Source of the DNA: Escherichia coli
Lineage (GTDB): Bacteria > Pseudomonadota > Gammaproteobacteria > Enterobacterales > Enterobacteriaceae
Strand: one strand, 5' to 3'
Assembly (NCBI RefSeq): GCF_016026235.1
Contig: NZ_CP065613.1
Length of the DNA stretch: 64,000 nt
Shown here: positions 50,065 to 52,583 of the stretch, piece after piece
Position numbering within the stretch: the stretch's first letter is position 1
Layout of the letters: each line of letters begins with the position of its first letter
Notes under the pieces: model-generated
The model's database searches: none
Seen by the model: the letters and a program-made list of their open reading frames with translations, nothing else
Told to the model about the DNA's origin: nothing
Translations under genes and position numbers: made by a program

Positions 50065-51252
50065 ATGAACTTATCCCTACGACGCTCTACCAGCGCCCTT
50101 CTTGCCTCGTCGTTGTTATTAACCATCGGACGCGGCGCTACGCTGCCATTTATGACCATTTACTTGAGTCGCCAGTACAGCCTGAGTGTCGATCTAATCG
50201 GTTATGCGATGACAATTGCGCTCACTATTGGCGTCGTTTTTAGCCTCGGTTTTGGTATCCTGGCGGATAAGTTCGACAAGAAACGCTATATGTTACTGGC
50301 AATTACCGCCTTCGCCAGCGGTTTTATTGCCATTCCTTTAGTGAATAACGTAACGCTGGTGGTGCTCTTTTTTGCCCTCATTAACTGCGCCTATTCTGTT
50401 TTTGCTACCGTGCTGAAAGCCTGGTTTGCCGACAATCTTTCGTCCACCAGCAAAACGAAAATCTTCTCAATCAACTACACCATGCTAATCATTGGCTGGA
50501 CCATCGGTCCGCCGCTCGGCACGCTGTTGGTGATGCAGAGCATCAATCTGCCCTTCTGGCTGGCAGCTATCTGTTCCGCGTTTCCCATGCTTTTCATTCA
50601 AATTTGGGTAAAGCGCAGCGAGAAAATCATCGCCACGGAAACAGGCAGTGTCTGGTCGCCGAAAGTTTTATTACAAGATAAAGCACTGTTGTGGTTTACC
50701 TGCTCTGGTTTTCTGGCTTCTTTTGTAAGCGGCGCATTTGCTTCATGCATTTCACAATATGTGATGGTGATTGCTGATGGGGATTTTGCCGAAAAGGTGG
50801 TCGCGGTTGTTCTTCCGGTGAATGCTGCCATGGTGGTTACGTTGCAATATTCCGTGGGCCGCCGACTTAACCCGGCTAACATCCGCGCGCTGATGACAGC
50901 AGGCACCCTCTGTTTCGTCATCGGTCTGGTCGGTTTTATTTTTTCCGGCAACAGCCTGCTATTGTGGGGTATGTCAGCTGCGGTATTTACTGTCGGTGAA
51001 ATCATTTATGCGCCGGGCGAGTATATGTTGATTGACCATATTGCGCCGCCAGGAATGAAAGCCAGCTATTTTTCCGCCCAGTCTTTAGGCTGGCTTGGTG
51101 CCGCGATTAACCCATTAGTGAGTGGCGTAGTGCTAACCAGCCTGCCGCCTTCCTCGCTGTTTGTCATCTTAGCGTTGGTGATCATTGCTGCGTGGGTGCT
51201 GATGTTAAAAGGGATTCGTGCAAGACCGTGGGGGCAGCCCGCGCTTTGTTGA
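50065..51252 (+). CDS. ydeE: MFS transporter
   Basis: 395-aa 12-TM ORF. Confidence 0.85.
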   Translation: MNLSLRRSTSALLASSLLLTIGRGATLPFMTIYLSRQYSLSVDLIGYAMTIALTIGVVFSLGFGILADKFDKKRYMLLAITAFASGFIAIPLVNNVTLVVLFFALINCAYSVFATVLKAWFADNLSSTSKTKIFSINYTMLIIGWTIGPPLGTLLVMQSINLPFWLAAICSAFPMLFIQIWVKRSEKIIATETGSVWSPKVLLQDKALLWFTCSGFLASFVSGAFASCISQYVMVIADGDFAEKVVAVVLPVNAAMVVTLQYSVGRRLNPANIRALMTAGTLCFVIGLVGFIFSGNSLLLWGMSAAVFTVGEIIYAPGEYMLIDHIAPPGMKASYFSAQSLGWLGAAINPLVSGVVLTSLPPSSLFVILALVIIAAWVLMLKGIRARPWGQPALC

Positions 51253-51378
51253 TTTAAGTCGAACACAATAAAAATTTAATTCAGCCTTCGTTTAGGTTAC
51301 CTCTGCTAATATCTTTCTCATTGAGATGAAAATTAAGGTAAGCGAGGAAACACACCACACCATAAACGGAGGCAAATA

Positions 51379-51474
51379 ATGCTGGGTAATATGAATGTTT
51401 TTATGGCCGTACTGGGAATAATTTTATTTTCTGGTTTTCTGGCCGCGTATTTCAGCCACAAATGGGATGACTAA
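51379..51474 (+). CDS. mgtS: 31-aa small membrane protein MgtS
   Basis: ATG preceded by GGAGG; MLGNMNVFMAVLGIILFSGFLAAYFSHKWDD; below ORF-track size cutoff. Confidence 0.75.
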   Translation: MLGNMNVFMAVLGIILFSGFLAAYFSHKWDD

Positions 51475-51501
51475 TGAACGGAGATAATCCCTCACCTAAC
51501 C

Positions 51502-51541
51502 GGCCCCTTGTTACAGTTGTGTACAAGGGGCCTGATTTTTA
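51502..51541 (+). terminator. intrinsic terminator after mgtS
   Basis: GGCCCCTTGT...ACAAGGGGCC stem followed by TGATTTTTAT. Confidence 0.6.
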
Positions 51542-51549
51542 TGACGGCG

Positions 51550-51660
51550 AAAAAAAACCGCCAGTAAACCGGCGGTGAATGCTTGCATGGATAGATTTGT
51601 GTTTTGCTTTTACGCTAACAGGCATTTTCCTGCACTGATAACGGATCGTTGACACAGTAG
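51550..51660 (-). ncRNA. mgrR: candidate PhoP-dependent small RNA (MgrR-like), about 100 nt
   Basis: Minus strand: direct-repeat PhoP-box-like AGTTTA-agctc-CGTTTA at about 51683..51699, then about 100 nt to terminator stem CCGCCGGTTTACTGGCGG plus T8 (51550..51575); no ORF. Confidence 0.5.
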
Positions 51661-51692
51661 CATCAGTTTTCTCAATGAATGTTAAACGGAGC

Positions 51693-52583
51693 TTAAACTC
51701 GGTTAATCACATTTTGTTCGTCAATAAACATGCAGCGATTTCTTCCGGTTTGCTTACCCTCATACATTGCCCGGTCTGCTCTTCCAATGACCACATCCAG
51801 AGGCTCTTCAGGAAATGCGCGACTCACACCTGCTGTCACGGTAATGTTGATATGCCCTTCAGAATGTGTGATGGCATGGTTATCGACTAACTGGCAAATT
51901 CTGACACCTGCACGACATGCTTCTTCATCATTAGCCGCTTTAACAATAATGATAAATTCTTCGCCCCCGTAGCGATAAACCGTTTCGTAATCACGCGTCC
52001 AACTGGCTAAGTAAGTTGCCAGGGTGCGTAATACTACATCGCCGATTAAATGCCCGTAGGTATCATTAACCAATTTAAATCGGTCAATATCCAACAACAT
52101 TAAATAAAGATTCAGAGGCTCAGCGTTGCGTAACTGATGATCAAAGGATTCATCAAGAACCCGACGACCCGGCAATCCCGTCAAAACATCCATATTGCTA
52201 CGGATCGTCAGCAAATAAATTTTGTAATCGGTTAATGCCGCAGTAAAAGAAAGCAACCCCTCCTGAAAGGCGTCGAAATGCGCGTCCTGCCAGTGATTTT
52301 CAACAATAGCCAGCATTAATTCCCGACCACAATTATGCATATGTTGATGGGCAGAATCCATTAGCCGAACGTAAGGTAATTCATCGTTATCGAGTGGCCC
52401 CAGATGATCAATCCACCGACCAAACTGGCACAGTCCATAAGAATGGTTATCCGTTATTTCTGGCTTACTGGCATCTCTCGCGACCACGCTGTGAAACATA
52501 CTCACCAGCCACTGGTAGTGGGCATCGATAGCCTTATTGAGATTTAACAAGATGGCATCAATTTCCGTTGTCTTCTTGATCAT
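51693..52583 (-). CDS. dgcZ: zinc-sensing diguanylate cyclase (CZB plus GGDEF)
   Basis: Starts MIKKTTEIDAILLNLNKAID...; GGEEF motif present. Confidence 0.9.
   Translation of the reverse strand: MIKKTTEIDAILLNLNKAIDAHYQWLVSMFHSVVARDASKPEITDNHSYGLCQFGRWIDHLGPLDNDELPYVRLMDSAHQHMHNCGRELMLAIVENHWQDAHFDAFQEGLLSFTAALTDYKIYLLTIRSNMDVLTGLPGRRVLDESFDHQLRNAEPLNLYLMLLDIDRFKLVNDTYGHLIGDVVLRTLATYLASWTRDYETVYRYGGEEFIIIVKAANDEEACRAGVRICQLVDNHAITHSEGHINITVTAGVSRAFPEEPLDVVIGRADRAMYEGKQTGRNRCMFIDEQNVINRV

What the first reader, a model, noticed from the sequence alone, without database searches (positions are those of the whole stretch)
51550..51700. PhoP-box promoter plus about 100-nt transcript ending in a strong terminator: MgrR-like sRNA convergent with mgtS
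On the minus strand a direct repeat AGTTTA-agctc-CGTTTA with PhoP-box spacing lies about 100 nt upstream of a GC-rich stem followed by eight T residues, with no ORF between. This fits a PhoPQ-regulated sRNA sitting next to the Mg-responsive small protein gene mgtS; I recall MgrR mapping in this interval in K-12.
Basis: partly seen in the sequence, partly recalled or inferred. Interest (0 to 1): 0.35.

Follow-up and report, generated by a model that had tools for sequence, protein, structure and literature searches.

The report
Known MgrR small RNA gene

Summary
Window 51647..51550 (minus strand) is mgrR. It differs at one base (97 of 98 identical) from the K-12 ncRNA mgrR/b4698, and it lies in the same place, between mgtS/mgtT and dgcZ. 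It also lies inside a 282-bit Rfam hit to STnc560 (gathering score 55).

Homologs from 65 enterobacterial sequences keep four features: a (C/T)GTTTA hexamer, a TGnTAnnnT extended -10, a 5' hairpin of variable sequence, and the terminator. The A-rich stretch just 5' of the seed is also near-invariant; invariance of the seed 20-mer itself says nothing, because it was the search key. Thirty-nine of the loci have no dgcZ upstream. This rejects the rival that the hairpin is only the dgcZ terminator.

Three refinements:
Its conserved partner lies downstream (CATTGA, -30..-25), not upstream.
- "No ORF between" ignores mgtT on the other strand, which overlaps the mgrR 3' end by 29 nt.
- The Rfam model (214 nt) is far wider than the real RNA.

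Novelty: already known. Interest: low.

The parts
51550..51647 (-). mgrR, the 98-nt MgrR sRNA (+1 = 51647, 3' end = 51550)
   Evidence: K-12 ncRNA mgrR b4698 maps here through alignment A1, with 97 of 98 bases identical. The stretch lies inside the Rfam STnc560 hit.
51468..51681 (-). Extent of the Rfam RF01407 (STnc560) match. It is wider than the RNA: it takes in 34 nt of promoter and 82 nt downstream (the mgtS terminator read antisense, and the mgtS 3' end).
   Evidence: (281.9 bits, model positions 1-214), compared with the K-12 coordinates.
51694..51699 (-). It contains the dgcZ stop codon TAA (51697..51695).
   Evidence: It scores at least 5/6 against (T/G)GTTTA in only 3 of 65 homologs: the window, E. 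whittamii and one Salmonella.
51683..51688 (-). Hexamer h2, CGTTTA (-41..-36), the PhoP half-site conserved across the family.
   Evidence: It scores at least 5/6 in 64 of 65 homologs. G18-A22 are nearly invariant in A2.
51672..51677 (-). Hexamer h3, CATTGA (-30..-25), a degenerate half-site 5 nt downstream of h2 and 12 bp upstream of the -10.
   Evidence: The TT is nearly invariant (T30, T31). The same position reads TGTTGA, CGTTTA, GGTTTA or TATTTA in other genera.
51654..51662 (-). Extended -10, TGcTACTGT (TG at -15/-14; hexamer TACTGT at -12..-7).
   Evidence: G44, T46, A47 and T51 are invariant and T43 nearly invariant in 65 homologs. The hexamer ends 6 nt before the annotated +1.
51613..51643 (-). 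5' stem-loop (MgrR nt 5-35).
   Evidence: Seen in the MFE fold. A local 5' hairpin is visible in the printed fold of every homolog, built from different sequences, although the script's strict automatic criterion flagged only 35 of 64. Eight of 11 pairs show changes on both sides. Enzymatic probing is reported in PMC6239178.
51580..51611 (-). Single-stranded centre: the A-rich (ARN)-like Hfq distal-face motif (nt 37-54) and the target-pairing region U55-A68 (51593..51580).
   Evidence: The A-rich bases 5' of the search seed are invariant or nearly so, outside the searched 20-mer. The region is essentially unpaired in the fold, apart from a weak 3-bp helix (nt 41-43 with 61-63). The roles are taken from PMC6239178.
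51550..51576 (-). Rho-independent terminator: hairpin 51576..51557 and U8 tail 51557..51550 (the tail binds the proximal face of Hfq).
   Evidence: The helix is 98.2% paired across 65 homologs, with one compensatory pair (A-U 40, G-C 20, G-U 3).
51693..52583 (-). dgcZ (diguanylate cyclase). It is upstream on the same strand, and its 3' end overlaps hexamer h1.
51379..51474 (+). mgtS (31-aa Mg-responsive small protein), convergent with mgrR.
   Evidence: It is convergent within 400 nt of mgrR in 34 of 67 loci.
51474..51578 (+). mgtT (34 aa). Its last 29 nt (51550..51578) are antisense to the MgrR terminator and U-tail.
   Evidence: The mgtS-mgtT operon and its PhoQP dependence are reported in PMC11429745.
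51500..51535 (+). Long GC-rich hairpin after mgtS, followed by a T-rich tail. It is presumably the mgtS terminator, lies inside the mgtT ORF, and is the second hairpin of the Rfam model.
   Evidence: Structure line of the Rfam alignment and the sequence.

Best explanation
The element is mgrR, an independently transcribed, PhoP-activated gene for a 98-nt Hfq-dependent (Class II) trans-acting sRNA.

1. Under low Mg2+/Ca2+, phosphorylated PhoP binds direct (T/G)GTTTA-type repeats that take the place of a -35 element upstream of an extended -10 (TGcTACTGT). It activates transcription from G at 51647.
2. The RNA consists of a 5' stem-loop, an unstructured A-rich stretch, a 14-nt pairing region (U55-A68), and a terminator hairpin with a U8 tail.
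3. Hfq binds the A-rich stretch on its distal face and the U-tail on its proximal face.
4. The pairing region anneals to the translation-initiation regions of targets such as eptB and ygdQ and represses them. This changes LPS modification and sensitivity to antimicrobial peptides.

What was shown here: the identity, boundaries, motifs, structure and conservation of the gene, and that its promoter does not depend on dgcZ. PhoP dependence, Hfq binding and the targets are taken from the literature on the K-12 allele, which has an identical seed. The choice of the ancestral PhoP box (h2+h3 rather than h1+h2) is an inference.
For: - Rfam STnc560 hit: 281.9 bits against a gathering score of 55.
- K-12 mgrR b4698 is at the collinear position and differs at 1 of 98 bases.
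- The locus is present in 5416 of 5426 complete E. coli genomes.
- The PhoP-type repeat is rare in the window: 2 found against 0.13 expected.
- No sigma-70 -35/-10 promoter is found in the region, as expected for an activator-dependent promoter.
- The fold gives a 5' hairpin, an open centre and a terminator, with z = -2.9. This agrees with published enzymatic probing.
- In 65 homologs, h2, the -10 and the stretch from the A-rich region to the terminator are invariant or nearly so. Only the columns outside the searched 20-mer count as evidence.
- The terminator helix is 98% paired with a compensatory pair. The given structure has 81% of cells paired, against 29-46% in the slid controls.
- 39 loci with more than 1.1 kb of upstream sequence have no dgcZ there, yet keep the promoter and the RNA.
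- Literature: PhoP/PhoQ dependence, the eptB and ygdQ targets, Class II Hfq binding, and the flanking genes mgtS and dgcZ.
Against: - Nothing contradicts the identification.
- Expression and PhoP dependence were not measured for this strain.
- The founding paper (Moon & Gottesman 2009, PMC2841474) is not held, so the published 5' end and box assignment could not be read. I rely on the K-12 annotation instead.
- The predicted MgrR-eptB duplex is at the published position (nt 54-69 against eptB -8..+8, -17.6 kcal/mol), but its energy is not better than chance: 104 of 1000 shuffles do as well.
- h3 matches the strict PhoP consensus at only 3 of 6 positions in E. coli, so the h2+h3 assignment is uncertain.
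Confidence: 0.97

Rival explanations
1. The hairpin and T-run are only the dgcZ terminator. The PhoP-like repeat is a chance feature of the dgcZ 3' end, and no independent RNA is made.
For: - dgcZ ends 45 nt upstream of the mgrR +1 on the same strand, and its stop codon lies inside hexamer h1.
- No other terminator-like site lies between dgcZ and this hairpin. dgcZ transcripts therefore probably do end here as well.
Against: - K-12 annotates a separate 98-nt ncRNA here.
- 39 loci have no dgcZ upstream but keep h2, the extended -10, the RNA and the terminator.
- In most Citrobacter, dgcZ ends 46-295 nt further upstream than in E. coli, and the promoter block is still conserved.
- The literature documents PhoP-dependent MgrR.
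Confidence: 0.02
2. The transcript is a small-protein mRNA or a dual-function RNA rather than a purely non-coding regulator.
For: - Mechanical ORFs overlap the stretch on the minus strand: 38 aa, 25 aa and 21 aa.
- Neighbouring genes encode very small proteins (mgtS, mgtT).
Against: - The 38-aa ORF starts at 51655, upstream of +1.
- The AUG at nt 60 opens a frame with no stop codon before the 3' end of the RNA.
- The 21-aa ORF starts at 51675, also upstream of +1.
- No ORF on this strand is annotated in K-12 or in the RefSeq genomes.
- The 5' part of the RNA diverges freely while keeping a hairpin, which is an RNA-structure constraint and not a coding one.
Confidence: 0.01

Closest known systems
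E. coli K-12 MgrR (mgrR, b4698)
   Same: Same length (98 nt), same position between mgtS/mgtT and dgcZ, and the same promoter motifs, seed, A-rich motif and terminator. 97 of 98 bases are identical.
   Different: One base differs: +4 is C here (window 51644) and T in K-12. It is unpaired, just 5' of the first stem. C is the majority state in the other genera, so K-12 probably carries the derived allele.
Salmonella STnc560 / MgrR (Rfam RF01407)
   Same: The window matches the covariance model end to end at 281.9 bits. Salmonella MgrR is also PhoP/Q-activated and abundant on Hfq. The Salmonella loci L024 and L066 share h2, the -10, the seed, the terminator and the convergent mgtS.
   Different: Salmonella has no dgcZ upstream. 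The Rfam family is 214 nt, so it includes promoter and downstream antisense sequence that are not part of the 98-nt RNA. No held paper links the names STnc560 and MgrR, so the equivalence rests on coordinates.
Other Class II Hfq sRNAs (ChiX, CyaR, McaS)
   Same: An internal A-rich/ARN motif together with a U-rich terminator tail, so the RNA binds both the distal and proximal faces of Hfq.
   Different: Unrelated sequences, regulators and targets.
PhoP-activated promoters with the box at -35 (for example the neighbouring mgtS promoter)
   Same: A direct hexamer repeat phased at 11 bp, with a hexamer ending 12 bp upstream of the -10. In mgtS this is AATTCA-GCCTT-CGTTTA, then 12 bp, then TAATAT at 51278..51312 (+).
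   Different: In mgtS the good hexamer is the promoter-proximal one. In E. coli mgrR the promoter-proximal hexamer (h3, CATTGA) is the weak one, and a third hexamer (h1) sits one helical turn further upstream.

Membership tests
MgrR sRNA (E. coli mgrR b4698 / Rfam RF01407 STnc560) | Match to the family covariance model above its gathering score | tested here: met
   281.9 bits against 55, E 3.7e-65, full model length.
MgrR sRNA (E. coli mgrR b4698 / Rfam RF01407 STnc560) | Sequence identity and synteny with the K-12 reference gene | tested here: met
   97 of 98 bases identical. Same order ydeE-mgtS-mgtT-mgrR-dgcZ-ydeI.
MgrR sRNA (E. coli mgrR b4698 / Rfam RF01407 STnc560) | Its own promoter with PhoP-box hexamers and a -10, independent of the upstream gene | tested here: met
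   h2 scores at least 5/6 in 64 of 65 homologs and the TGnTAnnnT -10 is invariant. Both are conserved in 39 loci without dgcZ.
MgrR sRNA (E. coli mgrR b4698 / Rfam RF01407 STnc560) | Induction by low Mg2+ through PhoQ/PhoP | not testable with these tools
   Known for K-12 and Salmonella from the literature. Not measured for this strain.
MgrR sRNA (E. coli mgrR b4698 / Rfam RF01407 STnc560) | Hfq-binding determinants: a Rho-independent terminator with a long U-tail, and a single-stranded A-rich (ARN) motif | tested here: met
   8-bp hairpin plus U8. The A-rich nt 37-54 are unpaired apart from a weak 3-bp helix, and the A-rich bases outside the searched 20-mer are near-invariant. Binding itself is taken from PMC6239178.
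MgrR sRNA (E. coli mgrR b4698 / Rfam RF01407 STnc560) | Seed U55-A68 complementary to the eptB translation-initiation region | tested here: inconclusive
   The seed is identical to K-12. The best duplex of the single-stranded core is nt 54-69 with eptB -8..+8 (-17.6 kcal/mol), which is the published region. However, 104 of 1000 shuffles reach that energy.
Canonical E. coli PhoP box, (T/G)GTTTA-N5-(T/G)GTTTA at the -35 region | Direct repeat with at most two mismatches | tested here: met
   h1+h2 (AGTTTA-AGCTC-CGTTTA) has 2 mismatches, both at the first position of a hexamer. The criterion comes from PMC7667037.
Canonical E. coli PhoP box, (T/G)GTTTA-N5-(T/G)GTTTA at the -35 region | The box overlaps the -35 region (its 3' hexamer lies about 12 bp upstream of the -10) | tested here: inconclusive
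   h1+h2 ends 23 bp upstream of the -10 and is centred near -44. h2+h3 is at the canonical place but has 4 mismatches in E. coli. In other genera h2+h3 is near-perfect at that place. A footprint is needed.
3'UTR-derived sRNA (processed from the upstream mRNA, here dgcZ) | No promoter of its own; occurrence tied to the parent gene | tested here: not met
   A conserved promoter of its own is present, and the RNA occurs in 39 loci lacking dgcZ.

The most novel reading that the evidence does not exclude
Only in Escherichia, the mgrR promoter has come to overlap the 3' end of dgcZ: the stop codon lies inside a third, Escherichia-specific PhoP hexamer. Also in Escherichia, the mgtS-mgtT mRNA overlaps the MgrR terminator antisense. 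Three consequences could follow.
- dgcZ transcripts, which have no terminator before the MgrR hairpin, would carry the whole MgrR sequence in their 3'UTR. They could give a PhoP-independent source of MgrR, or act as a seed-bearing competitor.
- PhoP bound at h1/h2 could act as a roadblock to dgcZ transcription under low Mg2+.
- The co-induced mgtS-mgtT and MgrR RNAs could pair at their 3' ends.

None of this is shown. It follows only from the anatomy.
Probability: 0.1. Interest if true: 0.4.

Novelty: already known. Interest (0 to 1): 0.08.

Why it matters
It matters little as a discovery. MgrR has been characterised since 2009 as the PhoP-dependent sRNA that represses eptB and so tunes LPS modification and resistance to antimicrobial peptides.

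The practical value is threefold:
- It confirms that the first-stage reader can recognise an sRNA gene from promoter and terminator logic alone.
- The RefSeq genomes whose features were seen (the 12 listed hits, and FDAARGOS_943 in detail) show no mgrR feature at this locus although the sequence is there. This looks like an annotation gap.
- It suggests that the ancestral PhoP box of mgrR is h2+h3, and that the textbook-looking h1+h2 repeat of E. coli is a lineage-specific addition overlapping the dgcZ stop codon.

Tried and rejected
- A strict regex for a perfect PhoP box in the homologs found it in only 5 loci. This looked like non-conservation until the alignment showed that the conserved partner of h2 is downstream and degenerate.
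- The sigma-70 promoter scan found nothing in 51200..52000. This is uninformative for an activator-dependent promoter that lacks a -35.
- RNAalifold on the sequence-only MAFFT alignment recovered only the terminator, not the 5' helix. The 5' hairpin sequences differ too much between genera to align by sequence. Folding each homolog separately shows the hairpin in every printed fold, though the script's strict automatic flag caught only 35 of 64.
- Full-length MgrR x eptB duplexfold gave a meaningless long duplex that was no better than shuffles (217 of 300 as good). The core-only duplex is at the right place but is not significant by energy.
- Papers not held: Moon & Gottesman 2009 (PMC2841474), Yin et al. 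2019 (PMC6351178), Moon et al. 2013 (PMC3765083).
- Searches for 'mgrR promoter' and for 'STnc560' together with 'MgrR' found nothing.
- The second PhoP-like repeat of the window (10615) lies in a fimbrial gene cluster and was not pursued.

Full report
OBSERVATION. On the minus strand the window reads ...CGA GTT TAA GCT CCG TTT AAC ATT CAT TGA GAA AAC TGA TGC TAC TGT GTC AAC GAT CCG....
- The direct repeat AGTTTA-AGCTC-CGTTTA occupies 51699..51683.
- The core GTTTA-N6-GTTTA occurs twice in the 64-kb window, against 0.13 expected from dinucleotide-preserving shuffles. The other copy, at 10615, sits inside a fimbrial gene cluster.
- 107 nt downstream of the repeat lies the only terminator-like site on this strand between 51200 and 52000: stem ACCGCCGG/CTGGCGGT (51576..51557; 8 pairs, 6 G-C, 4-nt loop), then eight T (51557..51550).
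- mgtS (31 aa, MLGNMNVFMAVLGIILFSGFLAAYFSHKWDD) is at 51379..51474 on the + strand, so it is convergent.

IDENTITY.
- A scan of Rfam release 15 gives one hit in the region: STnc560 (RF01407), 51681..51468 (-), 281.9 bits against a gathering score of 55, E 3.7e-65, covering model positions 1-214 (the same in the whole-window scan).
- The K-12 MG1655 record annotates, in the order ydeE-mgtS-mgtT-mgrR-dgcZ-ydeI, an ncRNA mgrR (b4698, 'small regulatory RNA MgrR') of 98 nt.
- Alignment of 351 nt of the window to K-12 is collinear and identical except at one base. It places mgrR at window 51647..51550 (-).
- The single difference is MgrR +4 (window 51644), C here and T in K-12. This base is unpaired, just 5' of the first stem. 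C is the majority state in other genera.
- The 701-nt region is present in 5416 of 5426 complete E. coli genomes, at 95% identity or more in every matching record.
- No held paper links the names STnc560 and MgrR. Here the equivalence rests on the Rfam hit fully containing the K-12-annotated gene.

ANATOMY.
- With +1 at 51647, the invariant TG-n-TAnnnT (TGcTACTGT, 51662..51654) is an extended -10 whose hexamer sits at -12..-7.
- There is no -35: the sigma-70 scan finds no promoter in the region. This is expected for an activator-dependent promoter.
- Three hexamers are phased at 11 bp: h1 AGTTTA (-52..-47), h2 CGTTTA (-41..-36) and h3 CATTGA (-30..-25).
- The RNA folds into a 5' stem-loop (nt 5-35), an essentially unpaired centre and the terminator hairpin (nt 72-91) with a U8 tail. 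The MFE is -25.9 kcal/mol with z = -2.9, and none of 200 shuffles folds as well.
- This is the structure obtained by enzymatic probing of K-12 MgrR. That work places an (ARN)5-like A-rich motif and the target-pairing region U55-A68 in the single-stranded centre (PMC6239178).

COMPARATIVE TEST OF THE RIVAL. An exact search for the 20-nt seed in one genome per species found 67 loci in Escherichia, Salmonella, Citrobacter, Enterobacter, Lelliottia, Leclercia, Kosakonia, Phytobacter, Pluralibacter, Yokenella, Silvania and others. Because the loci were selected by this exact 20-mer, its invariance is by construction. Only conservation outside it counts as evidence.

Alignment of 65 sequences, covering promoter plus RNA, gives the following:
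- the -10 positions are invariant;
- GTTTA of h2 is nearly invariant;
- TT of h3 is nearly invariant;
- a block from the A-rich stretch through the terminator is invariant or nearly so, including columns on both sides of the searched 20-mer.

Structure across the homologs:
- The terminator helix is 98.2% paired, with one clearly compensatory position (A-U 40, G-C 20, G-U 3).
- Eight of the 11 pairs of the 5' helix show changes on both sides.
- The given structure has 81% of cells paired, against 29-46% when the partners are slid by 1-3 columns.
- Folding each homolog alone shows a local 5' hairpin in every printed fold, built from different sequences: CGUUAUCAG.../...CUGUUAGCG in E. coli, CCCGGCAUGGAAUGUCGGG in Enterobacter, CCUGUGGCUACAGGG in Phytobacter. 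The script's strict automatic flag marked only 35 of 64, because alternative long-range pairings appear in some MFE folds. The terminator is clean in 60 of 64.

Synteny:
- A DgcZ homolog lies upstream on the same strand in 16 loci (Escherichia and part of Citrobacter).
- In 39 loci with more than 1.1 kb of upstream sequence there is none.
- Only in Escherichia does dgcZ run into the promoter.

The promoter and RNA therefore travel as a unit, independent of dgcZ. The hairpin probably also terminates dgcZ in E. coli, since nothing terminator-like lies between them. That is an addition to the main explanation, not an alternative.

WHICH HEXAMERS ARE THE PhoP BOX.
This satisfies the usual E. coli criterion of at most two mismatches (PMC7667037).
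- However, it ends 23 bp upstream of the -10, one helical turn further upstream than the usual -35 position.
- Across homologs, h1 scores at least 5/6 in 3 of 65 sequences and h2 in 64 of 65. The position of h3 keeps nnTTnA and is a good hexamer in several genera, for example TGTTTA-ATATT-CGTTTA in Lelliottia, CGTTTA-CTCGT-GGTTTA in L052 and CGTTTA-N5-TGTTGA in Enterobacter.
- h3 ends exactly 12 bp upstream of the -10. The neighbouring PhoP-dependent mgtS promoter has the same spacing: AATTCA-GCCTT-CGTTTA, 12 bp, TAATAT at 51278..51312 (+).
- I infer, at about 60%, that the ancestral box is h2+h3 and that h1 is an Escherichia-lineage third repeat formed over the dgcZ stop codon. A footprint would settle it. 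The founding paper, which may already state this, is not held.

MECHANISM.
- Taken from the literature on the K-12 allele, which has an identical seed: mgrR is induced through PhoQ/PhoP at low Mg2+/Ca2+. MgrR is a Class II Hfq sRNA that binds both faces of Hfq. It represses eptB and ygdQ by pairing through U55-A68, and so changes LPS phosphoethanolamine modification. Further reported targets include pitA, rpoS and grlRA.
- Tested here: the best duplex between the single-stranded core and the eptB leader is nt 54-69 with eptB -8..+8, across the start codon (-17.6 kcal/mol). The energy is reached by 104 of 1000 shuffled cores, and by other sites in the same 8 kb. The position agrees with the literature, but the computation adds no independent support.

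CORRECTIONS TO THE FINDING.
- 'No ORF between' is only loosely right. The minus-strand ORFs are mechanical: they start upstream of +1, or lack a stop within the RNA. The annotated + strand gene mgtT (34 aa, 51474..51578) overlaps the last 29 nt of mgrR antisense. mgtT is reported as co-transcribed with mgtS and PhoQP-dependent (PMC11429745).
- The Rfam family is 214 nt. It includes 34 nt of promoter and 82 nt downstream, so its coordinates should not be taken as the boundaries of the RNA.

VERDICT. The finding is a correct recognition of a known gene. Novelty: already known. Interest: low (0.08). The only mildly new points are the likely shift of the ancestral PhoP box, the packed Escherichia-specific arrangement (dgcZ stop codon inside h1; mgtT antisense to the terminator), and the missing mgrR annotation in the non-K-12 RefSeq genomes whose features were seen.

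Noticed in passing
window 51474..51578 (+): The small-protein gene mgtT (34 aa, b4775) starts on the last base of the mgtS stop codon and runs through the mgtS terminator hairpin. Its last 29 nt are antisense to the MgrR terminator and U-tail. Outside Escherichia, tblastn mostly matches only about the first 20-30 residues of MgtT, so it may be lineage-specific.
   Followed up: partly
window 51550..51647; RefSeq hits H1-H12: The 12 PGAP-annotated RefSeq E. coli genomes listed show dgcZ, mgtT, mgtS and ydeE under the match but no mgrR ncRNA. Only the K-12 record was seen to carry it. This looks like an annotation gap.
   Followed up: partly
window 51644: The single difference from K-12 in the mgtS-mgrR-dgcZ end region is MgrR +4, C here and T in K-12. 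C is the majority state in other genera, so K-12 probably has the derived allele.
   Followed up: partly
window 51278..51312 (+): The mgtS promoter has a PhoP-type arrangement: AATTCA-GCCTT-CGTTTA, then 12 bp, then TAATAT. The good hexamer is the promoter-proximal one.
   Followed up: no
L014 1388..3156 (Enterobacteriaceae bacterium RIT691, WJYM01000006.1): There are two copies of the 3' two-thirds of mgrR, 1.6 kb apart. The copy next to mgtS has lost the PhoP promoter and the 5' end; the other keeps them. Between them lie a 127-aa ORF with weak, sub-threshold CHAP/NlpC-P60/Tae4 matches and a 177-aa DUF3828 lipoprotein-like ORF. It looks like an insertion into mgrR that duplicated its 3' part, possibly carrying an amidase effector/immunity pair.
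   Followed up: partly
L017 9888..10062 (E. coli SCPM-O-B-8794): The dgcZ stop codon TAA is TTA here, so h1 reads AGTTTT. The DgcZ reading frame would then extend 7 codons through h2 to the TGA inside h3.
   Followed up: no
L007 (Caldithrix sp. MAG) and L058 (Chryseobacterium sp. 18061): These contigs carry enterobacterial mgrR/mgtS DNA. L007 encodes MgtS and MgtT 100% identical, and YdeE 99% identical, to the E. coli window proteins. This is probably contamination or mis-binning in the assemblies.
   Followed up: no
window 10615..10630 (+): This is the only other perfect GTTTA-N6-GTTTA repeat in the window. It lies within or between a fimA-like fimbrial subunit gene and a chaperone gene, and is probably chance.
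   Followed up: partly
window 63081..63279 (-): Rfam hit to IS009 (RF02111), 220.9 bits against a gathering score of 117.
   Followed up: no
L002 3520..3701 (E. coli FDAARGOS_943, the 100%-identical strain): An IS5-family transposase lies just beyond ydeI, and eamA is a truncated pseudogene in that strain. K-12 has ydeJ and an intact eamA at these places. I did not check whether the window has the same arrangement.
   Followed up: no
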